Positions 12,139-53,495 of a DNA stretch of 64,000 nucleotides are shown one piece after another. Below the pieces are notes generated by a model. The model was not told where the DNA came from, searched no databases, and worked only from the letters and a program-made list of their open reading frames with translations. The translations under genes and the position numbers were made by a program. Position 1 is the stretch's first letter, and each line of letters starts with the position of its first letter. Origin of the DNA: an uncultured bacterium (GTDB lineage: Bacteria > Fidelibacterota > UBA2242). The stretch lies in contig CAZPRY010000015.1 of assembly GCA_964589175.1 (NCBI GenBank), forward strand, positions 18,530 to 82,529. The letters run 5' to 3'.

Positions 12139-12281
12139 AAAAGAGTCACCATTCTGGAATATTTTGACAGGAACAATATGATATTCGGGATACTCGAACG
12201 ACAATTAAATATTTTTCAGCGTGGTTATCCGGCAAGTCCCGGTCAAGGAAGATTACAATTTGTAAGAGAGTGAGGTACGAT

Positions 12282-13277: not shown

Positions 13278-13342
13278 CGACGAGTGATTATCGAACAAGG
13301 TCAACGAAAAACATAAACGTGAGAAAGTGGTAGCAATAAGAC

Positions 13343-15204: not shown

Positions 15205-15272
15205 TTTTCAATCCGTGCATTATATCGACGGGTCTGTTTGAGATAAGTAAATAGTTTTTAAATTATACAAAA

Positions 15273-16178: not shown

Positions 16179-16184
16179 TCCAGT

Positions 16185-32945: not shown

Positions 32946-34265
32946 ATGATAAAAGCAAATAATTCTGTTTTTACTGAAATAAGAGAATATATAAGTGGTA
33001 TTCCATTAATTGATACACATGAACATTATCTAGGGATTACTGAACCGGTAAAAAATATCTGGAATTTTATTATGTCGGGATATCACGACTCAGATATGCA
33101 ATCAGCATCGTTTGGTAATGAAATTTATTATAAAAATATATTTGATAATACATTGTCATTTGATGAACGGTATAGTGCTTTTGAAAAAATATATAAAAAA
33201 ATAAAAAATACTGCATATGTAAAAGCATTTGAAATAGGATTAAAGAGATGTTGGGATATAGATGAAATCAATCTATCAACAATAAAAGATCTTTGTACGA
33301 AATTATTATCAAGAGAACAAAATTTTTATAATGCTTTAATAGAAAAGCACAATATTTTAATTAAGATTGTAGATGTATGTGATGCAGATAAATTTGTTGA
33401 AATAATTAACGGAACAAATAAAAACTATTCTAAATATTGTAGATTTGCATTTCCACTTCCATCTTTCCATAACATACATTCTTGTCAAGATATTAAAAAA
33501 TTGGAAAAGTATAATGAAGGAATGATAATTAAATCGCTGGATGATTACATCGATAATTTTAGTGTTTTACTAAAAAAAGCAGTTGATTTTGGAATCGTAT
33601 GCCTTAAAGATCAGACCGCTTATAGACGGATAATTGATTATAATAATCCAAGTAAAACTGAAGCGGAAAGTATTTTTAATAAAATAATATCAAATCCAAG
33701 AGACATTTTTTCATCAAATGAAGTTCGACCTCTTGATGATTGGCTTTTTCATAATTTTATTAATCTTGCGAAACAGTACAAATTACCAATACAAATTCAT
33801 ACAGGCCATATGGCTGGAATAAGAAATGATATTGTAAAAGCAAATGCAGCTCATTTAATAAAAGTAATAGAACTGCACTCGGATGTAGCTTTTGATTTAT
33901 TTCATGGAAATTGGCCGTATATGGGTGAATATTTGTTTATTGGTAAGAATTATCCAAACGCTTATCTTGATTTATGTTGGGTACAAACGATTGATCCCTT
34001 GTATTCTATAGAATTAATGAAAAGAGCAATTGTAACAGTACCACATAACAAAATAATGATATTTGGTGGCGATACAAACAAAATTGAAAATACTATAGGT
34101 TACTTAGAACTTGCAAAAGATAATGTTGCTTATGCTTTAAGTGAAATGATTGAAATGGATTATTTATCAAAAAATGAAGCAGGACAAATAGCAGTAGATT
34201 GGTTTTTTAATAATCCTAATGAACTATTTAATTTGGGATTAAAAAAACTAGAAAGAAAAATCTAA
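32946..34265 (+). CDS. Amidohydrolase family protein (uronate-isomerase-like) no. 3, strongly AT-rich
   Basis: LIDTHEH, PIQIHTG, FDLFHG, NAYLD, IFGGD; the sample line 33121-33180 is 12/60 G+C. Confidence 0.85.
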   Translation: MIKANNSVFTEIREYISGIPLIDTHEHYLGITEPVKNIWNFIMSGYHDSDMQSASFGNEIYYKNIFDNTLSFDERYSAFEKIYKKIKNTAYVKAFEIGLKRCWDIDEINLSTIKDLCTKLLSREQNFYNALIEKHNILIKIVDVCDADKFVEIINGTNKNYSKYCRFAFPLPSFHNIHSCQDIKKLEKYNEGMIIKSLDDYIDNFSVLLKKAVDFGIVCLKDQTAYRRIIDYNNPSKTEAESIFNKIISNPRDIFSSNEVRPLDDWLFHNFINLAKQYKLPIQIHTGHMAGIRNDIVKANAAHLIKVIELHSDVAFDLFHGNWPYMGEYLFIGKNYPNAYLDLCWVQTIDPLYSIELMKRAIVTVPHNKIMIFGGDTNKIENTIGYLELAKDNVAYALSEMIEMDYLSKNEAGQIAVDWFFNNPNELFNLGLKKLERKI

Positions 34266-35941
34266 TGATTAATAAAATAGATATGAAAAATTCAGCGGCA
34301 ATTTCGAAATTAAGATTTTACTTCTCACGAAACCTGTCCAGTATATCGTTAAGCCGAGCAATCATTTTAATCCTGCTTATAATAGCAATAAATCTAAATT
34401 TATACGCTAAAGAACAGGATGATCATTTTGATTTTAAAAAGTATCTATTTGGAGAAATTTCGACTTTATCTGTATATATACAGGATATTAATTATACCAC
34501 TGGTGAAGTTAATATCAGCGGATCTGATTCACAATGTCCTACTACTCCATTTACGTGGGATTGGGGAGATGGAACTATTAATGATGGATTTTTCCCTAAG
34601 CAACACACTTATTCCGATTTGACCAAAATATACAGTGTCAAGGTTACTGCACATTATTTTGATGGGGGAACGGATTCAGCGGAAATAACGATTCTTTTTG
34701 TTCCTCCTACTCCTCCTATCATTACTCCGGTATCTTTATCTCCAGATATAGCGATATCAATACCTGCTTCTAAGGTTACGCTAACAAGTAGACTATATGG
34801 TATCCCGAGCGGTTTAACTTACTTTGATGATAGTTTTTTTAATATCATCCCAAGATCAACAATTGAATATGTTTTAACGGCTGCAGCATCCATTCAAAGA
34901 GATTTTGTTAATGACGATGTATATCAAATCGATGGAGGTTTTAAACAGGTTCTTTTAAGATACCCTGGATTTGGCGGAATGTGTTCACTCTGGTATACGA
35001 ATCCTGTTAGTTTTGGCGTTGGGGATTATGGATTTCAAGGAACGATCCAGTGGTCATCTTTTTTTCATGAAATGGGCCACAATTTTACTTTGAATACGCC
35101 GGCCGATTACTATTTCGGAGGAAAGATTGATGGCAACGCGAATGCGATCTATTCCGAAACAATGGCCCAGATATTTCAACATGCCACGGCTTATGAGATC
35201 ATCAACAACGCCAGTAGCTATGGTCTAGGCGAAGATATCGTTGCGGATATAAAGGAGAGTGCCATTTCTTCCATCGCAATTGTCAGGAATTTCTACGAGG
35301 ACTATTGTAATTCCGGGATGAATTTTACTTCGTGGAACGATCCTATTACAGGTAGTGATGAGACGATAAAGATTTTCATGACTATTGCCTACAAATTCTT
35401 AGAACATGCTGAAAATTCGGATTTGGAATACCGAATTCCGTTGAAAAGAATGCTGACGCTTCTACAGGGATTTAATCAAGATCTCCGAAGTAGATATGAT
35501 CAAGCTAACAATACAATCGCTACCGATTTCTTCAGAGCGACCCTCATGGTATCTGCGGTCTCGTATGCTTTTGAGACTGACTTACGGGCGGAGTTCCGGG
35601 ATTTGAATTTTCCGGTGGATGATGAGACCTATGAAGAGTTGTTGAGTACGGTGACGGACGTTAGAGAATTCGATAATCCGGTAATGTCAAATTTTGAACT
35701 GCAACAAAATTATCCGAATCCTTTCAATCCAACGACTTCAATCGATTTTTCCATTGAAACCGGCAAAAAAGGAGTTCTTTCCGTTTTCAATATCAATGGA
35801 CAAATACTTGAGGTATGCAGATTTGATGAAGGAAATCACAGATTTTACTGGGATGGTTCAAAGTATGCCTCCGGAATTTATTTTTATAAATTGGAATCGG
35901 ATAATCGTTATGAAGTCAGAAAGATGTTAATGATATGGTGA
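34265..35941 (+). CDS. Secreted PKD + gluzincin-like HExxH protein with T9SS-type CTD; close paralog of 31526-32860
   Basis: WDWGDG...QHTY, FFHEMGHN...SETMAQ, DLRAEFRDLNFPVD, QNYPNPFNP...SGIYFYKL...RKMLMIW. Confidence 0.8.
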   Translation: MINKIDMKNSAAISKLRFYFSRNLSSISLSRAIILILLIIAINLNLYAKEQDDHFDFKKYLFGEISTLSVYIQDINYTTGEVNISGSDSQCPTTPFTWDWGDGTINDGFFPKQHTYSDLTKIYSVKVTAHYFDGGTDSAEITILFVPPTPPIITPVSLSPDIAISIPASKVTLTSRLYGIPSGLTYFDDSFFNIIPRSTIEYVLTAAASIQRDFVNDDVYQIDGGFKQVLLRYPGFGGMCSLWYTNPVSFGVGDYGFQGTIQWSSFFHEMGHNFTLNTPADYYFGGKIDGNANAIYSETMAQIFQHATAYEIINNASSYGLGEDIVADIKESAISSIAIVRNFYEDYCNSGMNFTSWNDPITGSDETIKIFMTIAYKFLEHAENSDLEYRIPLKRMLTLLQGFNQDLRSRYDQANNTIATDFFRATLMVSAVSYAFETDLRAEFRDLNFPVDDETYEELLSTVTDVREFDNPVMSNFELQQNYPNPFNPTTSIDFSIETGKKGVLSVFNINGQILEVCRFDEGNHRFYWDGSKYASGIYFYKLESDNRYEVRKMLMIW

Positions 35942-43234: not shown

Positions 43235-45058
43235 ATGACAGTCTATTATTCTGCTAAAAGTAGAACCGCCAACCGCCCTCAAGTCTCAAAAACAACCATT
43301 GATACCATAGTCGTTGGAAAACGGGAAGTCTGTGAATCAATTGTTGACTCAATAAGTGGACATCTTGATCGGAATAAAACTCCCTGCTTTTTAGCACTCG
43401 ACGGTTATTTAGGTATTGAATGGATGAAGATAATCCGGGAATTGAGCGATATTTTAGAAGAAAAACAGATAGCGATCAAGACCCTGGATATAGAATCATG
43501 TTTTAAGAAGCCTCACGAAATAGATGAGATGATTCAGCGCTACCTGGAATGCGATCCTGATTTCGGGTACGTATTTGACGGTCAGCTAGAACAATTTTTC
43601 GATTCGATTAAGTTAAATGATTTGGAAAAGGAGTTATACAATCTCAGACTGATCAGCTTAAAAAATCCAAAGACGGCAGTAATATGTTACGGGTGCGGTG
43701 CAGATTTAGAGCGGCTTAAAGTCTTATTTGACCGGATAGTGTATTTTGACTTGACACGGGAGGAACTATTCAATCGTTCCGAGATAAATTCGATTTCCTG
43801 CCTGGGCGCTAAGGACGGTGACTGGCCGGTGCATGCAAATCTAAAAAGATTCTGCTATGTGGATTCTCAGGTGCTGGACAAACATAAAAGAAGAGCTCTC
43901 AAAGAAATGGATTGCTACGTAGATGCTAACAGCACGGATGAACTAAAAATCGTCCCGCGCAGCTCTTATGAGGAGATTTTATCTGATGTTGCCCAGGCGC
44001 CTATCATTATGAAACAGCTGTATTGCCCGGTCGTCTGGGGCGGCAACTGGCAAAAAGAATTGAAGAAACTTTCCAAATCAATCACGAACTCGGGACAGGG
44101 TTCCATCGTACCGACCGAGAACAGTATCGAAATAGTCCTGGATAAAATTTGTCTGGACGTCACCTTTCAAAATCTCCTCTGGCAGGAACCCATCAGGATA
44201 TTAGGCGACTACGCATTTAAAATAACTCAAGGTAAGTTCCCACTTTGCTATTATTACGATGACGAGATCGACGGAGGCCACATGGCGATCCAGGTTCATC
44301 CGAATGATAGTTATATTAGGAAAAATTTCAACGAAGCGATGCGGCAGGATGAAAGTTACTATATCGTGCATACCGGACCCGGCGCCAAAACCTTCCTGGG
44401 TCTTAAAGAAGATGCCGACATCGACCAGTTTCAAAGAGATGCCGTCATGAGTGAAAAGGAAAACGTAGCTATTGATTATGAGCGCTACGTCGACAGTATC
44501 GAAACCAAACCCGGAGATTTTCTCTTAATCCCGGCGGGTACGCTGCACGCTTCGGGTAGAAATCAGATGGTTATCGAGATCGACTGGATCATTGCCGCTC
44601 ACACGCCCGGATATACATTTCACATATACGATTATATGAGACCCGATCTGGACGGAACTTTCCGAACGATGCACATCAAGCACTCTTTCAATGTCCTGAA
44701 AGAGGAGCGCAGAAGCAGCTGGGTGAAGGCGAATCTGAAACAAACTCCCAGGTTAATCCGCGAAGGAGAAGGCTGGGCCGAGTTTGTCATCGGCAGCCGG
44801 GAGGACATGTTCTTAGAAGTTCGCCGGCTTGAATTTCAAAAAAAGATTCACGACGAGACAGATGGGAGAAAAATGTTTCATGCTTTGACGCTGGTCGAAG
44901 GCGAAAGCGTTATCATCCAGTCTCTCGAAAATCCCGAAAGACAATGTCATCTGAATTTTCCTGACACGCTTATTGTACCGGCCTGCCTCGGCAAATATAG
45001 CATCATCAACCTGGGAAAGAAACCCTGTAAAGTCGTTAAGGCCCTGGTGAGATCGTGA
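43235..45058 (+). CDS. manA: Class I mannose-6-phosphate isomerase, long Bacteroidetes-type (N-terminal extension + cupin)
   Basis: VVWGGNW, MAIQVHP, RQDESYY, LIPAGTLHASG, EI...YTFHIYDY.RPDLDG..R..HI.H. Confidence 0.75.
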   Translation: MTVYYSAKSRTANRPQVSKTTIDTIVVGKREVCESIVDSISGHLDRNKTPCFLALDGYLGIEWMKIIRELSDILEEKQIAIKTLDIESCFKKPHEIDEMIQRYLECDPDFGYVFDGQLEQFFDSIKLNDLEKELYNLRLISLKNPKTAVICYGCGADLERLKVLFDRIVYFDLTREELFNRSEINSISCLGAKDGDWPVHANLKRFCYVDSQVLDKHKRRALKEMDCYVDANSTDELKIVPRSSYEEILSDVAQAPIIMKQLYCPVVWGGNWQKELKKLSKSITNSGQGSIVPTENSIEIVLDKICLDVTFQNLLWQEPIRILGDYAFKITQGKFPLCYYYDDEIDGGHMAIQVHPNDSYIRKNFNEAMRQDESYYIVHTGPGAKTFLGLKEDADIDQFQRDAVMSEKENVAIDYERYVDSIETKPGDFLLIPAGTLHASGRNQMVIEIDWIIAAHTPGYTFHIYDYMRPDLDGTFRTMHIKHSFNVLKEERRSSWVKANLKQTPRLIREGEGWAEFVIGSREDMFLEVRRLEFQKKIHDETDGRKMFHALTLVEGESVIIQSLENPERQCHLNFPDTLIVPACLGKYSIINLGKKPCKVVKALVRS

Positions 45059-45969
45059 GGCTTACAATTGAAAATGATTTTTATGTGACGCTGGATGTCG
45101 GCGGAAGTTTTGTAAAGGCCGCCCTGTTAAGCAGCGAATATGAAGTAGTCGCAGGCTCGTTTTCAAATACGCCGATCGATACAAGCGGGCCCTCAAAACA
45201 GGTAATCGATACGATAATTGCTGTGATTGCGGAAAAATTCCGGATAGTGAAAGCATTCGGGGAAGTCAAGGCAATCGGGCTCTGTTTCCCGGAATTCTCC
45301 GACTACAGCAAGGGTACAATCGCGATGATGAAGGATAAGTTTCAACAATGCTGCGGAATCGTGCTGAGGGACGAAATCATCAACGGATTGAGATTATCCC
45401 CTGATTTTCAGATTGTATTCGAAGAGGATTCGCTCGCCTTTATGAGAGGAGCGCTAAGACGGGGGAAGGCTGAAGCCTATGACCGGATCATCGGCCTTAC
45501 GCTTGGTACGGGCCTCGGGTCGGCCTTCATGGAAAAGGGAAAAATAATACGGAACGCTCCGGGCGTCCCGCCGGATGGCGAACTTGGCTGTCTTCCGTTA
45601 AAAGGTGGAATCATTGAAGACATCATCTCCATCAAAGGCATACTCCGGATTTACAGGGGAATTAGCAGAAAGCCGGAGAATGATGTAAAAACTATCGCTC
45701 TTCAGGCGCAAAAAGGGGATGCCGCTGCAATGCGAAGCTTCGACGAATTCGGAAAAACGATGGGGCAAATACTCAAAAAATACGTCGAAGACTTCAGGGC
45801 TGAGTGCATCATTTTGGGCGGCCAGATTGCCAAAAGCTTTGAACTTTTCGCGACGCCGTTGAGGAGCGAGTTGTCGGGCGTCGTCTCGCTTCAGGAAATC
45901 GTTCCGGCTGCATCGATTAATTTCAGTTCATTTTACGGTTTACTCAGCATGATAAAAGACGTACGATAA
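45055..45969 (+). CDS. ROK family sugar kinase
   Basis: LDVGGSFVKA, EDSLAF..G, LTLGTGLGSAF, GELG, IILGGQIA; GTGA overlap with the upstream gene. Confidence 0.9.
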   Translation: MRLTIENDFYVTLDVGGSFVKAALLSSEYEVVAGSFSNTPIDTSGPSKQVIDTIIAVIAEKFRIVKAFGEVKAIGLCFPEFSDYSKGTIAMMKDKFQQCCGIVLRDEIINGLRLSPDFQIVFEEDSLAFMRGALRRGKAEAYDRIIGLTLGTGLGSAFMEKGKIIRNAPGVPPDGELGCLPLKGGIIEDIISIKGILRIYRGISRKPENDVKTIALQAQKGDAAAMRSFDEFGKTMGQILKKYVEDFRAECIILGGQIAKSFELFATPLRSELSGVVSLQEIVPAASINFSSFYGLLSMIKDVR

Positions 45970-46020: not shown

Positions 46021-46154
46021 CAGCTAACGTTCGGAACTATATGCAGTACGGGATTTCGGAGCAGTTTCCTATCGAGTTACACGATACTACTTGCGAGAAC
46101 CGCATTACGAATACAGATGCAACCCGTATTGACATATAGTTTTTGTTATGCCCA
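46021..46154 (-). mobile_element. attC-like integron recombination site (attC-2)
   Basis: Minus strand: TGGGCATAAC (inverse core, 46154-46145) ... GTTAGCTG (core, 46028-46021). Inner arms AACTATATG-CAGTACGGG (46035-52) and CCCGTATTGACATATAGTT (46123-41) pair with one extra base and one mismatch; about 130 bp; begins about 11 bp after the stop of 46165-46686. Confidence 0.75.
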
Positions 46155-46164
46155 GGCTTTTTTT

Positions 46165-46686
46165 TCAATGCCATCTATAATCTGTATCTTTTAAAGGGTC
46201 AATATTTTTAAAATCATTAAAATCTTTGTATTTGTTATTCTCCCACCAATCATAATAGGCTTTTGCAGCAATTGCATGAGATACACTATCTGTGACTAAA
46301 TCTAATTCATCAGAATCTCGGAGTGCCAATATTGGATTTTGAGAAGGAAATCTCATTATCAAGTATTCGCTATTAATTGATAATGCTCGAATCGATTCAA
46401 TAGTCCATAAAACATACATCCCTAATTTGCATTCAGGTGCATATAATGATGAAATAGGATTATGAGGAAAATTAGTAATAATTTGAGTTTCATTTCTATA
46501 CTGGAGCAAGACAGGGATGTCACTATAAGTAAATGACGGAAGATTTAATGAATCATATTGACTTGATTTTAATAACTCGATATAAGTCGGGACATCAAGA
46601 TTAATTGTTTCATCATTGTCTTTTTTATCACAACCTATCAAGCCGATCAAAGAAGTCAGAAAGATTAAAAATTTCAACGTTTTCAT
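46165..46686 (-). CDS. Lipoprotein, DUF4943-like; single-gene cassette
   Basis: Lipobox LIG-C, RBS AAGGAG; P.F...DIP.LL...FP.NPISS....C.LG...LWTIESIR pattern recalled from Bacteroidetes DUF4943 proteins. Confidence 0.6.
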   Translation of the reverse strand: MKTLKFLIFLTSLIGLIGCDKKDNDETINLDVPTYIELLKSSQYDSLNLPSFTYSDIPVLLQYRNETQIITNFPHNPISSLYAPECKLGMYVLWTIESIRALSINSEYLIMRFPSQNPILALRDSDELDLVTDSVSHAIAAKAYYDWWENNKYKDFNDFKNIDPLKDTDYRWH

Positions 46687-46757
46687 ATTTTACTCCTTAC
46701 GATTACAAAGCCTTTATAGGATGCTCAAAATGTCAATTGGTTGCGTTTTTTAAGCTT

Positions 46758-46892
46758 GGGCATAACGGTTGGCGGTATGAAATCGTTGGGGATTGCGGGC
46801 TACTTTCCCGTCCACGACGACTGAAGTTTGAGCGGTGCAGAATGCTTGAATTACCACTGAAACCCTTATTGCATATAGCCTTTGTTACCTGC
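46758..46892 (-). mobile_element. attC-like integron recombination site (attC-1)
   Basis: Minus strand: GCAGGTAAC (46892-46884) ... GTTATGCCC (46766-46758), 135 bp, with imperfect inner arms (GGCTATATGCAAT vs ATTTCATACCGCC). Confidence 0.7.
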
Positions 46893-46965
46893 TGGTTTTA
46901 ATTCTTTTTAATCTAAAAGTAGGGGAGTTCATTTATCTCATTTAATAGTAATACTATTTTCCACA

Positions 46966-48198
46966 TTACAACATATTATGCCGCTTAATTATATCCGTTG
47001 TTACAACATCAATGTTGCCATTAGTCACTGTAATATAACCATCAATGGTACCAAAAATACCGTCAACATCCCCGTAATCAGTTCTTAAAAACATTATTGA
47101 CTCATTATTTCTCTGATTCATTAAATCTCTGATTGCTCTCCATTCCAAACCACACCACTCTTTTACATTATATTTACTGCATAGACAAACAACTATTAAA
47201 TCAGACTCATCATGATAAAGTTTTTGTAAATGTGTATCTAAATTTGGTCTTGCAAATTCTGCACTATGAAATTCATCATATAGAATTTCATCTTTAGGAA
47301 AATGTGTTGTTAATTTGTTAGCAATCCCTTTAATAATTTTCCTGTATTCGCCGGGAAACGACAATGCAACTCTAAATCGTTTTTGTTTATTTTTCATTTT
47401 TGTATTTAATAAATTATCTATTTGATTTGCAATGTTTTTTACATTTGATTGCAAGTTTCTAAAACTCTTTGCTGATTCTTCGTATTTTATTTGACAATTA
47501 CCAGCCGTCTCACAGTTCTTTGTATCTATAAGTAGTTGTGAAAAAACTCTTTGTAAATTGTTTTTTTGTTCTTCTATTTTAGATTTTAATGATGATATTT
47601 CTCTTTTATCTTTCAGATTCAAATTGCCATCTCTACTCTTTTTATTCAAGACATCTAACAATTTATCGCATAAAGCAGTTAATGTGTCTTTTTCTTTGTT
47701 AGCATTATCTAAAATTTTACCTCTCTCTTTTATTCTTTCAAATCGTTTGAGTTCGTCTTCAACATTAATTTTAACACCCATTTCCGCTTGAAGAGGCTCT
47801 GAGGTTTCAACATCAAATACTCTAAAACAATGAGTGTATAAAGTTTTAATACCATGCCCAAAACAATCTTTGTCTTCTGCCAAGTTGTGCATATGTTGCC
47901 CAGTAGTAATAATAGTTTCGCAATCTTCTATCGCATCTTCTTTTTCATATTGAGCAACAAATTCATCGACAAAATCTTTGCCTAAAACTTGTTCTTTTTT
48001 TCTATCATATACTGTTTCACATTTGCCTTCCCATAATTTTATTTTGCGATTTTTAGCACATGCCCAAATTGTAAAAGGGGCTTCGTCTAAAAATGCTAAC
48101 TTCATTCTGTCTTCATAACTGACTGCCCTCTGACTGATTAAATTTATTATGTATTCAATCAGTTCTTTTTTACTCATTTTATTATAGTCTATATCCAT
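46966..48198 (-). CDS. PAS domain - coiled coil - TIR domain protein
   Basis: N-terminal PAS-like segment (FLDEAPFTIWAC...LWEGKCETVYDRKKEQVLGKDF), heptad-rich middle, C-terminal TIR (VALSFPGE, LYDEF, LDTHLQKLY, VVCLCSKYNVKEWCGLEW with the conserved Glu). Confidence 0.8.
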   Translation of the reverse strand: MDIDYNKMSKKELIEYIINLISQRAVSYEDRMKLAFLDEAPFTIWACAKNRKIKLWEGKCETVYDRKKEQVLGKDFVDEFVAQYEKEDAIEDCETIITTGQHMHNLAEDKDCFGHGIKTLYTHCFRVFDVETSEPLQAEMGVKINVEDELKRFERIKERGKILDNANKEKDTLTALCDKLLDVLNKKSRDGNLNLKDKREISSLKSKIEEQKNNLQRVFSQLLIDTKNCETAGNCQIKYEESAKSFRNLQSNVKNIANQIDNLLNTKMKNKQKRFRVALSFPGEYRKIIKGIANKLTTHFPKDEILYDEFHSAEFARPNLDTHLQKLYHDESDLIVVCLCSKYNVKEWCGLEWRAIRDLMNQRNNESIMFLRTDYGDVDGIFGTIDGYITVTNGNIDVVTTDIIKRHNML

Positions 48199-48217
48199 AA
48201 TAAATAAACTTTATACG

Positions 48218-49000
48218 TTACTCTTGAATTGTACGCCCCGATTCTCTCATAAATGTATAATCAACACAGTTAAAACCACCGTCAATTATATAGGTTGTAC
48301 CTGTTATAAAGGATGCTTTTTCGGAAGCCAAGAAACTCACTAATTCTGCTATTTCCTTCGGTTCTGCAAACCTGCCTAATGGAGTGAGTTGTGGGGCAAT
48401 TTTCCATGAAATTTCAGGTATCATATTGACATCTGTTTTAACCCAGCCGGGTGCTATTGCAACAACCCTGATATGCTTTTCATCATAACCAAAATTGATA
48501 GCCAAACTTTGCGTAGCATTTATTAACGCTGCCTTACTTGCCGCATAGGACATACTCGAAAACGAGCCTTTCAGCCCATCTGTACTTGCAATATTGATAA
48601 TTACTCCATTATCAATGAGCGAGTTTTTTAATCCTGTACTTATAGCGAAAGGTGCTGTTACATTTACGGAAAAAATGGTATCCCATATTGCCATGTCGTA
48701 ATTGTTGTAATCTTCGCCATCAGGGAAAGTACCAGCATTATTGACGATTAAACTGAAGGTTTCCTTTTTCATTTCGTCAATAAAAGCCATAAGCAGTTCT
48801 CTGTCGGTAAAATCGGCTTTGTGCATTTTGTACTTATTCGGATACAATTTTGCGAAATCTTTTTCACACAGATTTTCCGAATTATAAACTGCGTGAACGA
48901 AATAGCCTTCCGAAAGTAAATGCTTACAGATTGCAAAACCAATTCCGGTTGTTCTCGAAACACCGGTAACTAATGCTGTTTTTTTTACTTTTTGACTCAT
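48218..49000 (-). CDS. Short-chain dehydrogenase/reductase (FabG-like)
   Basis: VTGVSRTTGIG, VNNAG, INIAS, YAASK, APGW, GRFAEP.EIA..V.FLAS. Confidence 0.93.
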   Translation of the reverse strand: MSQKVKKTALVTGVSRTTGIGFAICKHLLSEGYFVHAVYNSENLCEKDFAKLYPNKYKMHKADFTDRELLMAFIDEMKKETFSLIVNNAGTFPDGEDYNNYDMAIWDTIFSVNVTAPFAISTGLKNSLIDNGVIINIASTDGLKGSFSSMSYAASKAALINATQSLAINFGYDEKHIRVVAIAPGWVKTDVNMIPEISWKIAPQLTPLGRFAEPKEIAELVSFLASEKASFITGTTYIIDGGFNCVDYTFMRESGRTIQE

Positions 49001-49007
49001 AATATAA

Positions 49008-50156
49008 TCATTTAAAATTATTTACAGGAACTTGTTGCAATATACAATGAACACCACCACCGCCTAAAAGTAATTCGCGTGACGGTATTGGTATAATTTT
49101 TCTGCCTTTAAAAACAGAGGCAAATATTTTGTATGCGTTTTCGTCATATTCCAATGTTATTTTGTCTTCGGCAGAAGCAAACGAAGGAATTAGAACTGCA
49201 CCATTACAAACATAAGAGTTCATGTATGAAGCTGGAAGTCTATCGCCAGGCAATCTTGGAATTGCATATTCAGAAGAATCTACTCCGATATGTTCTTCTT
49301 CTGTTGTACACTGAACAGGAGGTTGCGAAACTTTAATCACATTATATTTCTCGCCAAAAGCATTTTTAGCATTCACTAAAATTATGTATGCCTCAAGCGA
49401 AATATCATATTGAGGGTCTGTTTCATCATCGCACCAATTCATAAGAATTGTTTTTGAATCTGCAAAACAGCACATATTGTCAATATGTCCGTTGTTTTCC
49501 TCTATATATAAACCACGTTCCAACCAAATGAAATTTGTTACACCCAAATATTTGGTAAAAATTACTTCAATTTCTTGCAAAGAAAGATTGTTATTTCGCT
49601 TTAAAATACACTCTTTTGTTGCAATTAATGTTCCTTTGCCATCCACTTGAATTGCTCCTCCCTCCAAAACCAAAGGACAGCGGTAACGGTTAGCTTTCTC
49701 AATTTCCAAAACTTTTCTTGCAACCATATCATCTAATTTCCATGGAAAATAGGAGCCTGTTAATTCCCACGGATTTATATTGCTATTGCGCCCAATTCCG
49801 CCCCATGCATTAAAGTGCCAATCAACACCTCGTAGTTCTTTTTTATCATTTACGACAAAAGTTGGTCCTGTATCTCTAATCCAAGCATCGTCATACGAAA
49901 TTTCAACAACTCTGATACTTGGGTTTAATCTATTTCGTGAATTTTCATATTGGGATTGCGTAACTCCCACTACAACATCTTCATAATTAGCAATAGCATT
50001 CGCTATTTCAGCAAATATTTTTTGTGCGGGTTTGGCACCCAATCGCCAAATATCATTTCTTTCGGGCCACAGCATCCAAGTCGCTGAATGTTGTTCAAAC
50101 TCGGCGGGCATAAAGAAACCTTCAACATGAGGATATTTATCAATAATAGTCATCAT
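49008..50156 (-). CDS. aguA: Agmatine deiminase / peptidyl-arginine deiminase family protein
   Basis: MPAEFE.H..TWMLWP, DAWIRDTGP, LEGG, GHIDN, ASYMN, GGGVHCILQQVP with the catalytic Cys. Confidence 0.9.
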   Translation of the reverse strand: MMTIIDKYPHVEGFFMPAEFEQHSATWMLWPERNDIWRLGAKPAQKIFAEIANAIANYEDVVVGVTQSQYENSRNRLNPSIRVVEISYDDAWIRDTGPTFVVNDKKELRGVDWHFNAWGGIGRNSNINPWELTGSYFPWKLDDMVARKVLEIEKANRYRCPLVLEGGAIQVDGKGTLIATKECILKRNNNLSLQEIEVIFTKYLGVTNFIWLERGLYIEENNGHIDNMCCFADSKTILMNWCDDETDPQYDISLEAYIILVNAKNAFGEKYNVIKVSQPPVQCTTEEEHIGVDSSEYAIPRLPGDRLPASYMNSYVCNGAVLIPSFASAEDKITLEYDENAYKIFASVFKGRKIIPIPSRELLLGGGGVHCILQQVPVNNFK

Positions 50157-50659
50157 AAAATATTGTTTTTAATTTTTTCTTTCAAATATGTTGCAAAATA
50201 CTCAAAATATTTTTCTTGTATTTCTTTTAATTTCCAATCTCTTCCGGTTATAACTTTCCGACAATTAGTTGCCCCACAAGTACATCCAAAGGAATAATCT
50301 TCATTATCTAAAAAGGCGTAATCAATTGTAAGTTCGTCATCAATTTCAATGTCAAGTATGGCAACAAATGTAATTTCCCCTCTAATTCCACAGTTAGGAT
50401 TACATGAATGATTTACATATAGTTTAATCTTATCTTCTTCTTCAGCATTAGTGGCACCTAAATAATATGTATCATCAATAGGGTGATAACTATTGATAAC
50501 TCCAGAAGAAAATATTTGCTCTCTTTTAAGAATGTGTCCACCTTTTATAAACACTATTTCCCCTTTTTGAAAAGACTCTTTTGCAAACATTCCTTTTTTA
50601 TGAGTGCTACTTTCGCGAATTTCAACTTTGTCCGATAATATTGATTTTACCATATCCAA
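50153..50659 (-). CDS. SET-domain methyltransferase with post-SET zinc motif
   Basis: KGMFAK, NHSCNPN, ELTIDY, CTCGATNCR. Confidence 0.93.
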   Translation of the reverse strand: MDMVKSILSDKVEIRESSTHKKGMFAKESFQKGEIVFIKGGHILKREQIFSSGVINSYHPIDDTYYLGATNAEEEDKIKLYVNHSCNPNCGIRGEITFVAILDIEIDDELTIDYAFLDNEDYSFGCTCGATNCRKVITGRDWKLKEIQEKYFEYFATYLKEKIKNNIL

Positions 50660-50667
50660 AATAAATT

Positions 50668-51786
50668 TTATGGGTGCATATAATCAAATTTTTCAGACGC
50701 TCCAAGTTCTTTATACAAAGTCCGTATTGCTTTGCATGCAATCGGTATTTGTCCATCTAATTTACCTGTTTCGTTCATTACTTCACCAAGACAATATCCG
50801 CTACAATGCAATTTGGCAACACAAGTTTTACAATGAGCGATATTATCTACATTGCGGCTTTGCAATGCTTTAATCTTTTCTGGATAATATTCAAATTGCT
50901 TTGTCTGTTCGTCCCATTTGCCATAAATAAAACAATCCATGTGATTTGCATTTGCTCCAAGTACCACCAAATCACAGGCAGAAACATAACCATCGGGCGT
51001 TAAATGCGGAACAGGGGTACAGGAACGACAATTTATTTTTGCTTCGCCGTCGAAATTACAAGTCAGAAAACTACCGTAAAACACGCCTGTCTGTTTAGCG
51101 TATCGGTGTGCCTCAACAAAGTTTTGAATGTATGTGCCCATGTCAAAATGAAAGTTTGCAAGTTTTTCCTTGTCATCGCAAACGGGAATTTTATCCACAG
51201 CAGGAAATTCGGGGTCTGTCCAAATATATTTTATTCCTAAACTGTTAAAATAATCAACCATTTCTTTTTGTCGGCGTATGTTTAAGTCGGTCATCGTAAC
51301 CCTTACACCTACCATTAAATTATGCTTATCCCGATTGACAAACAACCATTTTATATTTTCTTCGATTTTGGGTGCGGAAGGTTTTTTGTGTGGGAAAGGT
51401 CGTTGTGTATTTTGAATATCGGGCGTTCCGTCAAACGACACCCATACGATATTTATGTTGTCCAAAATCCATTTCAGAACTCTCGGACTGAAAGCGCCGT
51501 TTGTTTGAAGTTCTGCCGTAACTTCGTTTCCGCCCTTTTGTCGGGCATAGTCGGTTATTTGCCGCATTAGGTCAAATTCTTGCGTTGGCTCACCAGGTCC
51601 GTAAAAACGGATATGCCTGCTTTTATTTTTAGCAAAATATTCATCTATCCCCGCCTTTGCAATTTCCAAAGGCAGAGACTTTTCTTCAAGTTCGCCTCTT
51701 TCCTTGCTGTTATAGCAATATATACAACGCAAATTGCATTTCGTTGTCAGAAAGAATGAAATCATTTGTTTATTGCAATGCGGCAT
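50668..51786 (-). CDS. Radical SAM protein with SPASM domain
   Basis: CNLRCIYC, GPGEPT, QTNG, VSFDG; C-terminal CRSC...ACD...CKTCVAKLHCSGYC...C auxiliary-cluster cysteines. Confidence 0.93.
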   Translation of the reverse strand: MPHCNKQMISFFLTTKCNLRCIYCYNSKERGELEEKSLPLEIAKAGIDEYFAKNKSRHIRFYGPGEPTQEFDLMRQITDYARQKGGNEVTAELQTNGAFSPRVLKWILDNINIVWVSFDGTPDIQNTQRPFPHKKPSAPKIEENIKWLFVNRDKHNLMVGVRVTMTDLNIRRQKEMVDYFNSLGIKYIWTDPEFPAVDKIPVCDDKEKLANFHFDMGTYIQNFVEAHRYAKQTGVFYGSFLTCNFDGEAKINCRSCTPVPHLTPDGYVSACDLVVLGANANHMDCFIYGKWDEQTKQFEYYPEKIKALQSRNVDNIAHCKTCVAKLHCSGYCLGEVMNETGKLDGQIPIACKAIRTLYKELGASEKFDYMHP

Positions 51787-51910
51787 AATTTTATCGTTTT
51801 TTCATAATATTTCTTCATTGGAGTCGTTATATATCCCTGTTACTTCCCAATTTTTTAGATAATAAAAACATTTTATTTCTTTTATATTGCTTTGGTTCTT
51901 TGTTAAACTT

Positions 51911-51928
51911 GCAGGTAACCATTGGCTA
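51911..51928 (-). mobile_element. Cassette 5' core site / possible attI-like or secondary insertion site
   Basis: Minus strand TAGCCAATG-GTTACCTGC. The 9-mer GTTACCTGC is the exact complement of the inverse core of attC-1; no partner inverse core is seen within 140 bp upstream. Confidence 0.55.
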
Positions 51929-51939
51929 AACGCATTTCG

Positions 51940-52019
51940 TACCCGCCTGACCCCCGACTGGTCGGGGCGGGCAGGTATCCTTCCAATTTGGCACGATATA
52001 CGTCCCGAAATTTCGGGAC
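51940..52019. repeat. Two GC-rich palindromic elements (REP-like)
   Basis: CCCCGAC-tg-GTCGGGG inside TACCCGCCTGA...GGGCAGGTA (51940-51977) and the perfect 18-bp palindrome GTCCCGAAATTTCGGGAC (52002-52019). Confidence 0.6.
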
Positions 52020-52211
52020 ATTTATTTTTCTTATGGATGATGCCTTGCCGCATCGATGGGATTGACAATCTTTCCCAATTTTTGTTTGCTGAAAGGGGTC
52101 TATATTTCAGTCGCATTTCCTGCCGAACTGTCTCGAAAAAGGCAAACTGTAAAACGCTTACGTCCAAGCCCTGGCTTTTCACTGGGTCAACATCCTTGTA
52201 CATTTGTCTGA

Positions 52212-52241
52212 ACTTTACGCATAAAAAACGAATAATGTCAA
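52212..52241 (-). promoter_or_regulatory. Sigma-70-type promoter facing the cassette array (Pc-like)
   Basis: Minus strand TTGACA (52241-36), 18 nt, TAAAGT (52217-12). Confidence 0.5.
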
Positions 52242-52290
52242 TCAAAATCATTCTTTTTACGGACAATTCCGCATTTTCTTCAATTTCCTG

Positions 52291-52319
52291 TTGACAATTT
52301 CGCGCCCAGCCCTTATTAT
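52291..52319 (+). promoter_or_regulatory. Near-consensus sigma-70 promoter, divergent from the previous one
   Basis: TTGACA (52291-96), 17 nt, TATTAT (52314-19). Confidence 0.7.
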
Positions 52320-52520
52320 CTTAATGTACACATAAACGCATTGCAGTTCGCCCTGGCGGCTGCCGCTTTTTGTCATTGCTTTGACAGCTTCCCTTATGGG
52401 CCTTATAGACCCGACTATAGAATCCGGCGGCGCATAGGCGTAATCCGCCGGTAAATCTCTGGGAGTAAGTGTAACATGGTCGGCCGGAGAGCCCGGCCCG
52501 CCGCAACCAAGGAGGATATC

Positions 52521-53207
52521 ATGCCCGGCAATTTCAAGTTCTCTTACAAAGTGGTTGAAATGCTCATCGGTGCGCGCGCCCTGTGCGACATTTTCGGGGA
52601 GAACAGGGAACCGCTCGTCGCCGCACGCAGCACCTGGGTAGACCCGTTCATCGATAATTACCGCACCCGCATCGACACCGCCATGGAGCAATATCTGGGG
52701 CACGACTTCCGGAAACGGCTGCGTGACGTCTCCCTGGAAGTCCGCACTATCATGGGCCTCGTCCTTCCCAAACTCGCGCTCTTCAAGAGCCAGATCGAAT
52801 ACGATTATAGCGGCGCAGCCCTGAAAAACCTGCTGGATTCCCTGGGATATTCCCGTTTCTACAAATCCGTACAGAACAAGAACCAGGAAGCGACAATCCA
52901 GATGCTCTACCAGTTCAGACAGAATATGACCGATGAACTGAAGGCCGAACTGGTCGCCAAAGGCATGGCCGCCGACCTGATCGATGGTATTATCAGCCAG
53001 ATCGATGCGCTCAAAGAGGCCGATACTCTCCAGGAAAGCCTGAAAGCCTCCGGCAGCGGATTCCCCCGGGAAGCAGTGGACGAATTCAACGCTATTTACA
53101 AGGAGGCCATCGGCATCTGTAAAATCGCCCGCCAGGTCTTCCGGGCCAATCCCGAAAAACGGGCCCTTTTCACCTTTTCCCGGCTGGTCAAGCGGATGAG
53201 CGCCTGA
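52521..53207 (+). CDS. Hypothetical all-alpha protein
   Basis: Strong RBS AAGGAGG 5 nt before ATG 52521; GC-rich, coding-like codon usage; no recognisable catalytic motif and no tyrosine-recombinase R-H-R-Y pattern. Confidence 0.8.
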   Translation: MPGNFKFSYKVVEMLIGARALCDIFGENREPLVAARSTWVDPFIDNYRTRIDTAMEQYLGHDFRKRLRDVSLEVRTIMGLVLPKLALFKSQIEYDYSGAALKNLLDSLGYSRFYKSVQNKNQEATIQMLYQFRQNMTDELKAELVAKGMAADLIDGIISQIDALKEADTLQESLKASGSGFPREAVDEFNAIYKEAIGICKIARQVFRANPEKRALFTFSRLVKRMSA

Positions 53208-53300
53208 ACCGTTAGCCTTTATGTGGGCCGGACACCGGTTTCCGGCCAAAGGAAGGACATTCCGGGACCCGCTTACGAATTTTGCTAAACGGGATAGGGA

Positions 53301-53495
53301 TTCCGGCGACTCAGATTCTCATTCCGGAACTTAGATATGTTTTCCGGTAACTTGGCTGTGGATTCCGGAATATGGAAACGGATTTCGGTAACTTAGATAT
53401 GCTTTCCGGCAACCTGGATAGCGATTCCGGAACATGGAAATGCTTTCCGGCAATTCAGGTGTGGATTCCGAAACCCGGACGCCCATTTCGAAAGC
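53301..53495. repeat. Degenerate tandem repeat, 20-21 bp period, about 9-10 units, core TTCCGG(N)AAC
   Basis: Core G positions at 53305, 53326, 53346, 53367, 53387, 53408, 53429, 53449, 53470; linkers partly recur (TTAGATATG twice, ATGGAAA twice, GTGGA twice). Confidence 0.8.

What the first reader, a model, noticed from the sequence alone, without database searches (positions are those of the whole stretch)
46966..51786. Candidate new system: radical SAM/SPASM - SET - deiminase - SDR - PAS/TIR operon
Seen: five tightly coupled genes (gaps 8, -4, 7 and 19 nt), all with intact catalytic motifs, ending in a sensor-effector fusion and bounded by cassette ends. No precursor-peptide ORF is evident. 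Established: SPASM rSAMs mostly modify peptides or proteins; SET domains methylate Lys/His or small molecules; the AguA/PPAD fold deiminates agmatine or peptidyl-Arg; bacterial TIRs are often NADases in anti-phage defence; integron cassettes can carry defence genes. I recognise no named system with this combination. Inference: (i) the four enzymes make a modified polyamine or amino-acid signal read by the PAS domain to gate the TIR (metabolite antitoxin or infection alarm); (ii) they post-translationally modify the PAS-TIR protein or a host/phage protein; or (iii) a small-molecule biosynthetic cluster with a TIR-based regulator.
Basis: partly seen in the sequence, partly recalled or inferred. 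Interest (0 to 1): 0.88.

Follow-up and report, generated by a model that had tools for sequence, protein, structure and literature searches.

The report
New rSAM–PAS–TIR candidate defence operon
Four metabolic-type enzymes and a sensor protein carrying a TIR domain (a type that kills cells in known systems) travel together as one unit in at least five bacterial phyla, with the TIR swapped for small membrane proteins in most relatives, so this looks like an undescribed, probably anti-phage, system whose chemistry is unknown.

Summary
The five minus-strand genes are real, tightly packed and catalytically intact: radical SAM/SPASM, SET, agmatine deiminase, SDR, and a PAS–coiled-coil–TIR protein. 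They sit in a 30–36 % GC island within ~45 % GC Bacteroidota sugar-utilisation genes. The "cassette ends" were not confirmed as an integron.

The genes are co-conserved. Fifteen independent loci from Bacteroidota, Chlorobiales, Bacillota, Chloroflexota, Melainabacteria and Actinomycetota carry the PAS protein. Wherever the contig allows, they also carry rSAM, AguA and SDR, and all but one carry SET. Four different gene orders occur.

The TIR is not core. Most relatives have PAS–coiled-coil plus a separate 3-TM or 1-TM protein instead, the effector swapping typical of abortive-infection systems. Neighbours include AbiEii, CBASS, SPARTA-type TIR-APAZ, type I RM specificity subunits, MADS components and integrases.

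The rSAM (45–80 % identical over its full length across loci) is the hub of a larger family. There it pairs with SDRs, SET, GNATs and unrelated TM-anchored proteins of unknown fold. No PADLOC model or paper in the held library matches.

Best reading (about 0.45): the enzymes make or consume an agmatine-derived small molecule that the PAS domain reads to gate a TIR or membrane effector. Function is untested.

The parts
50668..51786 (-). Radical SAM/SPASM enzyme, 372 aa. It is the hub of the system. The CxxxCxxC motif lies at nt 51715-51738 and the SPASM cysteines at nt 50734-51060. There is no N-terminal RiPP-recognition domain.
   Evidence: Pfam Radical_SAM 45.8 bits. The best NCBIfam hits are all far below cut-off: PapB 99 vs 340, SCIFF maturase 83 vs 425, anSME 67 vs 349, HxsB 66 vs 370, viperin 37 vs 180. 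The closest solved structure is CteB, 5wgg. There are 829 homologues, and the best 120 are all at least 61 % identical. 102 columns are invariant in 14 diverse members.
50153..50659 (-). SET-domain methyltransferase, 168 aa from the TTG start or 166 aa from the ATG at 50653, with a post-SET zinc-cysteine motif.
   Evidence: Pfam SET 53.2 bits. The closest PDB sequences are the MLL1 and ASH1L SET domains, and also BurB, a bacterial SET-domain protein (9l4t). It is 50-73 % identical in related loci.
49008..50156 (-). Agmatine deiminase (AguA) family enzyme, 382 aa.
   Evidence: TIGR03380 equivalog score 451.8, above the 381.8 cut-off. E = 1e-104 to Arabidopsis agmatine iminohydrolase 1vkp, with the catalytic Cys aligned. 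System copies in other phyla score 342-569 bits on the same model.
48218..49000 (-). Classical short-chain dehydrogenase/reductase, 260 aa.
   Evidence: adh_short_C2 150.4 bits. Only generic FabG-like or glucose-dehydrogenase-like NCBIfam hits below cut-off. It is 38-76 % identical in loci with the full system, against 26-37 % for the different SDR that sits next to the rSAM in loci without PAS.
46966..48198 (-). PAS–coiled-coil–TIR protein, 410 aa. N-terminal helices nt 48082-48198; PAS core nt 47770-48081; three long helices nt 47392-47763; TIR nt 46969-47391.
   Evidence: AlphaFold2 pLDDT 87. Foldseek finds PAS domains and PAS–coiled-coil sensor kinases. The TIR-only model, pLDDT 88, matches solved TIR domains. 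TIR_2 scores 27.8 bits, and the Chlorobiales orthologue 31.5. PAS invariants across 20 proteins of all classes are W45, W56, C60, Y64, D30, E85, D109, D129 and E139.
46165..51800 (.). Low-GC island (0.30-0.39) holding the five genes plus an unrelated DUF4943 lipoprotein gene, set between sugar-utilisation operons of about 0.44-0.46 GC.
   Evidence: The flanks are a ROK kinase, MFS and ABC sugar transporters, GH130 and GH172, and a LacI regulator.
46753..46885 (.). Repeat element just downstream of the operon. Its 5' half resembles the palindrome at 46025-46151. Its 3' half is 75 % identical to an element 6 kb downstream of a related rSAM cluster in a Bacteroidales MAG.
   Evidence: It is not a hairpin itself (z = 0.2).

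Best explanation
This is a horizontally mobile, modular conflict system, most likely anti-phage and of the abortive-infection type. It has two halves.

The enzyme half (rSAM/SPASM, SDR, SET, agmatine deiminase, sometimes a GNAT) acts on a small cationic metabolite that starts from agmatine.

The output half is a PAS–coiled-coil protein. Its PAS pocket reads that metabolite and, through the coiled coil, switches a toxic output: a fused TIR domain here (expected to be an NAD-consuming enzyme), or a partner membrane protein in most relatives.

I cannot tell whether the ligand is an infection-induced activator or a constitutively made brake that disappears when a phage disturbs SAM, NAD(P)H or polyamine pools.

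Shown: gene linkage, domain identities, the effector swap, the mobile and defence-rich neighbourhoods, and the lack of a precursor peptide.

Inferred: the defence role, the small-molecule ligand, PAS gating and NADase activity.
For: 1. Linkage. In 53 genome loci found through the rSAM, every locus with AguA (9 of 9) also has the PAS protein and the window-type SDR, and 8 of 9 have SET. Five further metagenome lineages found through the PAS or TIR protein carry the same set. Four gene orders occur: rSAM-SET-AguA-SDR-PAS/TIR; rSAM-AguA-SDR-PAS/TIR-SET; rSAM-PAS-TM-SDR-AguA-SET; rSAM-AguA-PAS-TM-SDR.

2. Effector swap. The PAS domain is conserved, but its C-terminal partner varies. It is a fused TIR in 5 lineages, a long coiled coil plus a ~125-155 aa 3-TM protein in 8, and a short coiled coil plus a 167-183 aa 1-TM protein in 2. 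TIR/TM interchange is documented for a signalling defence system, Pucsar (bioRxiv 10.64898/2026.08.12.744502).

3. Context. Of 105 flanking ORFs in 12 full-system loci, some hit AbiEii (1e-90, directly upstream in L012), a complete CBASS set (cyclase 2e-107, E1-E2 5e-144, 2TM effector 6e-54), SoFic, PD-Lambda-3, MADS components, integrases, a relaxase and TnpV. Flanks of the wider rSAM family include a SPARTA-type TIR-APAZ gene (7e-137) that begins about 40 nt after the cluster in L011, type I RM specificity subunits, MADS components and a PglX-like gene.

4. Small-molecule substrate.
- AguA copies in all lineages score 342-569 bits on the agmatine deiminase equivalog model, yet the copies in other lineages are only 36-48 % identical to the window's. 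Agmatine deiminase activity itself therefore seems to be what is retained.
- The window's rSAM is 78 % identical to that of a Bacteroidales locus with no AguA or PAS, and 75 % identical to that of a locus with the same architecture. Its substrate is therefore unlikely to be the PAS protein.
- The PAS invariants are three aromatics, one Cys and five or six acidic residues. There is no invariant Lys or Arg that SET or a deiminase could target.
- No conserved precursor peptide exists.

5. Patchy spread over at least five phyla, and low GC here, indicate horizontal transfer.

6. Precedent for a constitutively made ligand restraining an effector: Panoptes (PMC12657218).
Against: - There is no experimental datum of any kind.
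- In the window itself the island sits among sugar-utilisation genes, not in a defence island.
- The defence-gene neighbours were counted but not tested against a genomic background.
- PADLOC and PHROGs give no hit for the PAS, SET or AguA parts.
- The enzyme set looks like ordinary secondary or polyamine metabolism. A 38 % identical rSAM sits in a plainly biosynthetic plasmid cluster with an MFS transporter, SDR, AsnB, an AMP-binding enzyme and a second rSAM.
- The TIR is divergent: Pfam is just below cut-off and there is no sequence hit to any solved TIR. Its NADase activity is assumed from one conserved Glu.
- The reaction of the rSAM is unknown, and its nearest characterised relatives modify peptides.
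Confidence: 0.45

Rival explanations
1. Effector maturation. The rSAM/SPASM enzyme, with SET, the PAD-fold enzyme, SDR and GNAT, post-translationally modifies the PAS protein, its TM partner or another protein, as HxsB/HxsC mature HxsA in the HXS anti-phage system. It would still be a defence system, but with no diffusible ligand.
For: The nearest characterised relatives of the rSAM are peptide or protein maturases: PapB, the SCIFF maturase CteB, and anSME. An rSAM-matured protein effector in phage defence has been shown for HXS (PMC13128918). The closest solved SET relatives are protein-lysine methyltransferases; GNAT enzymes and, in other families, PAD-fold enzymes are known to modify proteins (my own knowledge). 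One Cys (C60) is invariant in the PAS domain.
Against: All maturase models score far below cut-off. There is no RRE domain and no conserved peptide. The same rSAM (up to 78 % identical) serves loci whose partner proteins are unrelated to PAS and have no invariant Cys. The PAS domain has no invariant Lys or Arg. AguA copies behave as bona fide agmatine deiminases.
Confidence: 0.15
2. Not immunity. This is a small biosynthetic or catabolic cluster for an agmatine- or polyamine-derived metabolite (osmolyte, signal, antibiotic). The PAS–coiled-coil protein is its regulator or a membrane-associated scaffold, and the defence-like neighbours only reflect shared residence on mobile DNA.
For: All four enzymes belong to families common in metabolism. 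A distant rSAM relative lies in a typical natural-product cluster on a Clostridium perfringens plasmid. In the window the flanks are metabolic genes.
Against: No transporter, resistance gene or DNA-binding regulator is conserved with the set. In known systems a TIR domain or a tiny multi-TM protein attached to a sensor domain acts as a toxic effector rather than a metabolic regulator (my own knowledge; TIR and TM effectors in Pucsar, bioRxiv 10.64898/2026.08.12.744502). Interchange of TIR with two kinds of TM protein is hard to explain by regulation. Strong defence genes lie directly adjacent in several loci.
Confidence: 0.2
3. Viperin-like logic. The rSAM+SDR pair, with SET and AguA as accessories, is itself the antiviral arm and makes a toxic or chain-terminating analogue. 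The PAS–TIR or TM proteins are sensors or a second arm.
For: The rSAM is extremely conserved across phyla, as expected for an enzyme acting on a universal metabolite. An SDR sits next to the rSAM in 35 of 53 loci. There is weak partial similarity to pVip models (43 bits). From memory only, as a lead: the rSAM dehydratase plus reductase pair AprD4/AprD3 deoxygenates a sugar.
Against: It is not a viperin: 36.9 bits against a cut-off of 180, and it has a full SPASM domain. This reading explains neither the strict AguA–PAS coupling nor the effector swap.
Confidence: 0.1
4. Chance adjacency of unrelated genes on an island.
For: None beyond the absence of experiments.
Against: The same set occurs in 15 independent loci, in four gene orders and at least five phyla.
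Confidence: 0.01

Closest known systems
Signalling abortive-infection systems with interchangeable TIR/TM effectors (Thoeris, CBASS, Pycsar, Pucsar)
   Same: Enzyme module plus a sensor-linked toxic output; TIR and transmembrane outputs replace each other between relatives; patchy, mobile distribution next to other defence genes.
   Different: No cyclase, CD-NTase or ThsB-type signal producer. The sensor is a PAS domain, not SAVED, SLOG, Macro or a cNMP-binding domain. The enzyme set (rSAM/SPASM, SET, AguA, SDR) has no counterpart in those systems, and the presumed ligand would be amine-derived rather than nucleotide-derived. There are no PADLOC hits.
Panoptes (constitutive decoy signal restrains a membrane effector; PMC12657218)
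   Same: Offers a working precedent for the version in which the ligand is a brake.
   Different: Panoptes uses a minimal CRISPR polymerase and cyclic nucleotides, and shares no homologous parts. The brake versus activator question is undecided here.
HXS system (HxsB/HxsC rSAM-SPASM maturases; PMC13128918)
   Same: An rSAM/SPASM enzyme inside a phage-defence operon.
   Different: The HxsB model scores 65.7 against a cut-off of 370. There is no HxS-repeat protein, no second rSAM and no periplasmic effector. Here the partners are small-molecule-type enzymes.
Prokaryotic viperins (pVip)
   Same: An rSAM enzyme in antiviral defence; partial core similarity.
   Different: Far below the family cut-off, and this enzyme has a SPASM domain with auxiliary clusters that pVip lacks.
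RiPP rSAM/SPASM maturases (PapB, CteB/SCIFF) and anSME
   Same: The best sequence and PDB relatives of the rSAM, with the same cysteine architecture.
   Different: No precursor peptide, no RRE, and scores of 67-99 bits against cut-offs of 340-425.
AguA of the agmatine-to-putrescine pathway
   Same: The deiminase passes the equivalog cut-off and aligns over its full length, including the catalytic Cys, with plant and bacterial agmatine deiminases.
   Different: No N-carbamoylputrescine amidohydrolase (AguB) is encoded in the operon, whose five products are the rSAM, SET, AguA, SDR and PAS-TIR proteins; the operon lies on a low-GC island and is strictly coupled to the PAS protein.

Membership tests
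Any system in PADLOC-DB v2.0.0 | Component proteins match that system's HMMs | tested here: not met
   The only hits are a partial pVip match to the rSAM (43 bits) and a spurious JetC coiled-coil match. There is nothing for SET, AguA, SDR, PAS or the partner proteins of related loci.
Prokaryotic viperin | Score at or above the NCBIfam viperin_w_prok cut-off of 180 bits | tested here: not met
   36.9 bits, covering residues 7-127 only.
HXS system | HxsB equivalog (cut-off 370), plus an HxsC and an HxS-repeat protein | tested here: not met
   65.7 bits. The operon holds no second rSAM and no repeat protein.
RiPP cluster with an rSAM/SPASM maturase | A conserved precursor peptide gene next to the maturase | tested here: not met
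   Clustering of 804 short ORFs in 15 loci gave only alternative-frame artefacts inside genes.
RiPP cluster with an rSAM/SPASM maturase | The maturase reaches a family cut-off (PapB 340, SCIFF 425) | tested here: not met
   99.2 and 82.7 bits. The alignment with CteB starts at CteB residue 101, so the N-terminal recognition domain is absent.
Radical SAM/SPASM superfamily | CxxxCxxC plus the seven-Cys SPASM motif | tested here: met
   C17, C21 and C24, and C256x9Gx4C271, C319x2Cx5Cx3C332 and C351, are all invariant in 14 homologues.
Agmatine deiminase (TIGR03380) | Score at or above the equivalog cut-off of 381.8; catalytic Cys, His and Asp present | tested here: met
   451.8 bits, with the catalytic Cys aligned to 1vkp. 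Copies in other loci score 342-569 bits, so some fall below the cut-off. Enzyme activity was not assayed.
SET-domain methyltransferase | Pfam SET above the gathering score; NHSC and ELxxDY motifs | tested here: met
   53.2 bits against 22.4. The motifs were read in the translation. The substrate class, protein or small molecule, cannot be told from sequence.
TIR domain | Pfam TIR_2 gathering score of 28 | tested here: inconclusive
   27.8 bits here and 31.5 bits for the 65 % identical Chlorobiales orthologue.
TIR domain | TIR fold | tested here: met
   The domain model has pLDDT 88. The top Foldseek hits are the TIR domains of MAL, MyD88, RPS4, TIR-STING, RUN1, SPARTA and SpbK, with TM 0.55-0.68.
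TIR NADase | Catalytic glutamate; NAD+ cleavage | not testable with these tools
   E352 in WCGLEW is invariant in 30 homologues. Activity needs an assay.
PAS domain | PAS fold, or a Pfam PAS hit | tested here: met
   No Pfam hit in the window protein, and orthologues score 19-24 bits, below cut-off. The fold is met: TM 0.77-0.83 to solved PAS domains.
Integron gene cassette | An attC site at the 3' end of the cassette and an array or integrase nearby | tested here: not met
   No integrase-like ORF was found in the window. The element after the operon is not a hairpin (z = 0.2). Only the element after the next gene is palindromic, with AAC...GTT ends. No element lies upstream.

The most novel reading that the evidence does not exclude
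The rSAM, SDR, SET and agmatine deiminase build a new methylated or oxidised agmatine/polyamine-type molecule. This would be the first non-nucleotide, amine-derived immune messenger (or metabolite antitoxin) in bacteria. A dedicated PAS domain with an aromatic and acidic pocket would read it and fire a TIR or membrane effector. The same rSAM hub, paired with unrelated TM-anchored sensor-like domains of unknown fold, would define a whole superfamily of such systems (829 homologues with E <= 1e-5, the best 120 all at least 61 % identical).
Probability: 0.25. Interest if true: 0.9.

Novelty: categorically new. Interest (0 to 1): 0.8.

Why it matters
If it is a defence system, it adds a new kind of chemistry to bacterial immunity: radical SAM plus SET plus deiminase plus SDR acting on an amine. 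That would link polyamine/agmatine or SAM metabolism directly to abortive infection.

The strict AguA–PAS coupling, the conserved pocket residues and the swappable TIR/TM outputs make this directly testable with a cloned 5-kb operon.

Independently of function, the rSAM is the hub of a large, highly conserved, uncharacterised family with several unknown partner domains. The family is common in gut Clostridia and Bacteroidales, so solving one member would annotate hundreds of loci.

Tried and rejected
- Integron reading. I looked for an integrase (phmmer with tyrosine and serine recombinases from related loci, no hit). I also looked for repeated boundary elements. Only 3'-side attC-like elements around the neighbouring DUF4943 gene turned up, so I dropped the integron reading.
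- Empty site. I searched for contigs carrying the identical ROK gene without the island. All seven carry the island or end before it.
- PAS versus the unknown partner domains. I tested whether the PAS domain is related to the partner domains of the other rSAM loci (hhalign). It is not. Only c3~U2 (93 %) and c7~c9 (97 %) are related to each other.
- Identity of the 'U' domain. Pfam, PADLOC, PHROGs and a PDB profile search all returned nothing.
- N-terminus of the 761-aa rSAM fusions. I tested whether it is TIR-like. There is no support (hhalign probability 0.5 %).
- GNAT neighbours. They classify only as generic ElaA-like enzymes, not SpeG or PaiA.
- Rfam scan of the region: nothing.
- Phage collection: no homologue of the rSAM.
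- Upstream ORF. The 149-154 aa ORF at 51802-52266 is called on identical contigs but is absent from every other lineage and has a different GC, so I did not count it as part of the system.

Full report
**1. What is in the window**

Five minus-strand ORFs lie at 50668-51786, 50153-50659, 49008-50156, 48218-49000 and 46966-48198. Their spacings are 8, -4, 7 and 19 nt.

- Pfam assigns Radical_SAM, SET, PAD_porph and adh_short_C2 above cut-off. TIR_2 scores 27.8 bits against a cut-off of 28.
- NCBIfam places the third protein above the equivalog cut-off for agmatine deiminase (451.8 vs 381.8). The rSAM falls far below every curated rSAM/SPASM family: PapB 99/340, SCIFF 83/425, anSME 67/349, HxsB 66/370, viperin 37/180.
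- The block has 0.347 GC. The left-hand ORFs at 43235-45969 have 0.459. On the right, 51787-52266 has 0.388 and the block beyond it (52267-53250) has 0.548.
- The flanks are sugar-utilisation genes of a Bacteroidota genome: a ROK kinase, MFS and ABC transporters, GH130, GH172 and LacI, with a T9SS-tailed protein on a sister contig.
- The same island with the same flanks occurs on 14 metagenome contigs. No island-free version of the site was found.

**2. The sensor–effector protein**

AlphaFold2 with a 33-sequence alignment gives a confident model (pLDDT 87). It has two N-terminal helices, a PAS fold (residues 40-143), three long helices (146-269) and a flavodoxin-like domain (275-409).

- Foldseek matches PAS domains at TM 0.77-0.83. 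It also matches PAS–coiled-coil sensor kinases such as YF1.
- The C-terminal domain modelled alone (pLDDT 88) matches the TIR domains of MAL, MyD88, RPS4, TIR-STING, RUN1, SPARTA and SpbK.
- This TIR belongs to a large subfamily fused to many other domains (AAA_16, SUMF1, hydrolases). The WCGLEW glutamate is invariant.

So "PAS/TIR fusion" is correct. PAS is supported by fold only, and TIR by fold plus a borderline Pfam score.

**3.

The rSAM has 829 homologues. The best 120 are all at least 61 % identical, and they come from Bacteroidia, Chlorobiales, Clostridia and others.

A scan of one genome per species returned 53 loci. I ran tblastn with the window proteins and clustered all neighbouring ORFs. 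The result:

- Every locus with an AguA homologue (9 of 9) also has a homologue of the PAS protein and the window-type SDR.
- 8 of those 9 also have SET.
- Searching from the PAS/TIR side found five more lineages with the same set.

Four gene orders occur:

| Order | Loci |
|---|---|
| rSAM-SET-AguA-SDR-PAS/TIR | window, L012, L066, L068; also L070 and L071 with a short PAS protein |
| rSAM-AguA-SDR-PAS/TIR-SET | L064 |
| rSAM-PAS-TM-SDR-AguA-SET | L014, L023, L031, L033, L036, L037, L059 |
| rSAM-AguA-PAS-TM-SDR | L049 |

Hosts span Bacteroidota, Chlorobiales, Lachnospiraceae and other Clostridia, Anaerolineales, Gastranaerophilales and Actinomycetes. Retention through rearrangement and across phyla is strong evidence for one functional unit.

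An exhaustive HMM search with the PAS region finds 190 clusters (at 50 % identity) with E <= 1e-10. Their lengths peak near 265-285 and 390-410 aa.

**4. The TIR is one of three interchangeable outputs**

- In the Clostridia-type loci the PAS protein is about 400 aa of PAS plus coiled coil, with no TIR. It is followed by a 123-156 aa protein with three predicted TM helices.
- In L070 and L071 a 255-266 aa PAS protein is followed by a 167-183 aa protein with one C-terminal TM helix.
- Only five lineages carry the fused TIR.

Exchange of TIR for small membrane proteins behind a conserved sensor is characteristic of abortive-infection systems. It has been described for a cGMP-signalling system, Pucsar (bioRxiv 10.64898/2026.08.12.744502, found).

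**5. The neighbourhood**

Among 105 ORFs flanking 12 full-system loci, PADLOC finds:

- AbiEii (1e-90, directly upstream in L012);
- a complete CBASS set (cyclase, E1-E2, 2TM effector);
- SoFic, PD-Lambda-3_B, mad2, a HEPN protein, a type II methylase and two PDC candidates.

Pfam adds integrases, a relaxase, TnpV, a KAP NTPase and Hypoth_Ymh.

Among 125 ORFs flanking the other rSAM loci, the cluster in the Bacteroidales MAG L011 is followed about 40 nt later by a SPARTA-type TIR-APAZ gene (7e-137). Type I RM specificity subunits, MADS components and a PglX-like gene also occur.

I did not test these counts against a background, and the window's own flanks are metabolic. This is therefore supportive evidence, not proof.

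**6. The rSAM is the hub of a wider family**

An SDR sits next to the rSAM in 35 of 53 loci. In loci without PAS it is a different SDR subfamily (26-37 % identity to the window's). It is followed by TM-anchored proteins with unknown C-terminal domains.

- Two such groups exist: c3 and U2, which are related to each other (hhalign 93 %), and c7 and c9 (97 %). Neither is related to PAS.
- SET and GNAT are optional.
- In four loci the U domain is fused to the rSAM itself (630-762 aa).
- None of these partner domains matches Pfam, PADLOC, PHROGs or PDB sequences.

**7. Small molecule or protein substrate?**

Four observations favour a small molecule.

- (a) The system's AguA copies all look like true agmatine deiminases (342-569 bits on TIGR03380), although the copies in other lineages are only 36-48 % identical to the window's. 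L049's copy passes both curated cut-offs. That fits repeated retention or recruitment of the same activity.
- (b) The window's rSAM is 78 % identical to that of L011, which has no AguA and no PAS. It is 75 % identical to that of L012, which has the same architecture. The enzyme is therefore the same whatever the partner protein, which argues against the partner being its substrate.
- (c) Across 20 PAS proteins of all classes the invariant residues are W45, W56, Y64, C60, D30, E85, D109, D129 and E139 (D92 in 19 of 20). No Lys or Arg is invariant. This pattern suits a pocket for a cationic ligand. That is my inference, because I had no access to the model coordinates to check it.
- (d) No conserved short ORF exists.

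Against this, the nearest characterised rSAM relatives are peptide maturases. An rSAM-matured protein effector is now known in phage defence, in HXS (PMC13128918). I therefore keep protein maturation as a rival at 0.15.

**8. Mechanism I commit to (0.45)**

- AguA converts agmatine to N-carbamoylputrescine, or acts on a close analogue.
- SET, the rSAM and the SDR methylate and oxidise or reduce this or a related amine.
- The PAS domain binds the product or a substrate. Through the coiled coil it controls oligomerisation and activation of the TIR (NAD+ depletion) or of the membrane partner (membrane damage), which stops phage replication.
- Two SAM-dependent steps and one NAD(P)-dependent step would make ligand supply sensitive to phage interference with these pools. 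Panoptes (PMC12657218) is a precedent for this brake version. I cannot decide between brake and activator.

Sub-probabilities:

| Claim | Probability |
|---|---|
| Linked system | about 0.95 |
| Conflict or defence role | about 0.6-0.65 |
| Small-molecule ligand read by PAS, given a defence role | about 0.65 |

**9. Cassette ends**

No integrase-like ORF was detected in the window.

Downstream of the operon, two roughly 125-nt elements flank the DUF4943 gene.

- The distal one (46025-46151) is an imperfect palindrome. Its minus strand reads GCATAAC-5 nt-L''...L'-8 nt-GTTAGCT, and the fold z-score is -2.6 to -3.1. It is therefore attC-like.
- The proximal one (46753-46885) is not a hairpin. Its 3' half is 75 % identical to an element 6 kb downstream of the L011 cluster.
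- Nothing comparable lies upstream of the rSAM gene.

An integron origin is possible but not shown.

**10. Novelty**

PADLOC v2 has no model for it. Seven full-text searches combining the domain names with phage-defence terms returned nothing relevant.

The overall logic resembles known signalling defence systems. The enzyme set, the PAS reader and the presumed amine chemistry have no described counterpart. I rate it categorically new as a gene system, with the caveat that its function is untested.

Noticed in passing
window 46025-46151 and 46753-46885; L011:17356-17468: Two roughly 125-nt elements flank the DUF4943 lipoprotein gene. The distal one is an attC-like imperfect palindrome with AAC...GTT ends. 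The proximal one is a chimera whose 3' half recurs (75 % identity) downstream of a related rSAM cluster in a Bacteroidales MAG. This may be a CALIN-like or REP-like mobile boundary element.
   Followed up: partly
window 53321-53474: A tandem array with nested periods of 21, 41 and 62 nt, rich in TTCCGGAA-like motifs, in the non-coding stretch between the island side and the LacI gene. It could be a set of regulator-binding repeats.
   Followed up: no
window 52257-53249: A block of 0.55 GC carries long overlapping ORFs on both strands (330 aa on the minus strand, 243 aa on the plus strand). Gene callers choose differently on sister contigs, and there is no Pfam hit for the 243-aa product.
   Followed up: partly
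window 51802-52266 (-): A 149-154 aa ORF lies 15 nt upstream of the rSAM gene. It is called on all identical contigs, but it is absent from every other lineage of the system, has no Pfam hit and has a different GC. It is probably not part of the system.
   Followed up: partly
window 33000-35000: A second low-GC stretch (0.28-0.32) covers the ORFs at 32946-34265 and 34265-35941. It may be another acquired segment.
   Followed up: no
L050:8819-11104, L051, L053, L055: These are 630-762 aa fusion proteins made of an N-terminal ~170-aa domain (starting KIFIASSGDEKEER), the unknown 'U' domain and the rSAM/SPASM enzyme. U is therefore physically linked to the rSAM. The N-terminal domain is not detectably TIR.
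   Followed up: partly
L026 and L028, about 10000-16800: Two different rSAM-centred clusters sit back to back in Eubacterium-type MAGs: rSAM-SDR'-U2, and SDR-c9-c9-rSAM.
   Followed up: no
L011:13228-16097: A SPARTA-type TIR-APAZ gene (PADLOC 455 bits) and a 507-aa ORF, presumably a short Argonaute, begin about 40 nt after the rSAM-SDR-U2-GNAT cluster.
   Followed up: partly
L072 (NZ_CP102303.1 63230-75433): A mobilizable Clostridium perfringens plasmid carries a 38 % identical rSAM in a cluster with an MFS transporter, SDR, AsnB, an AMP-binding enzyme and a second rSAM. It looks like a natural-product pathway that uses a distant relative of the hub enzyme.
   Followed up: partly
L025 (JAITCR010000189.1): An rSAM-SDR-c3-GNAT cluster lies on a contig binned as a Nitrososphaerota archaeon. 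This is either a transfer to archaea or a binning error.
   Followed up: no
P0245, P0246, P0288: Giant proteins (1960-4799 aa) match profile positions about 36-88 of the PAS alignment 10-32 times each. This is a repeated module sharing the W..W.G.C motif region; its origin is unknown.
   Followed up: no
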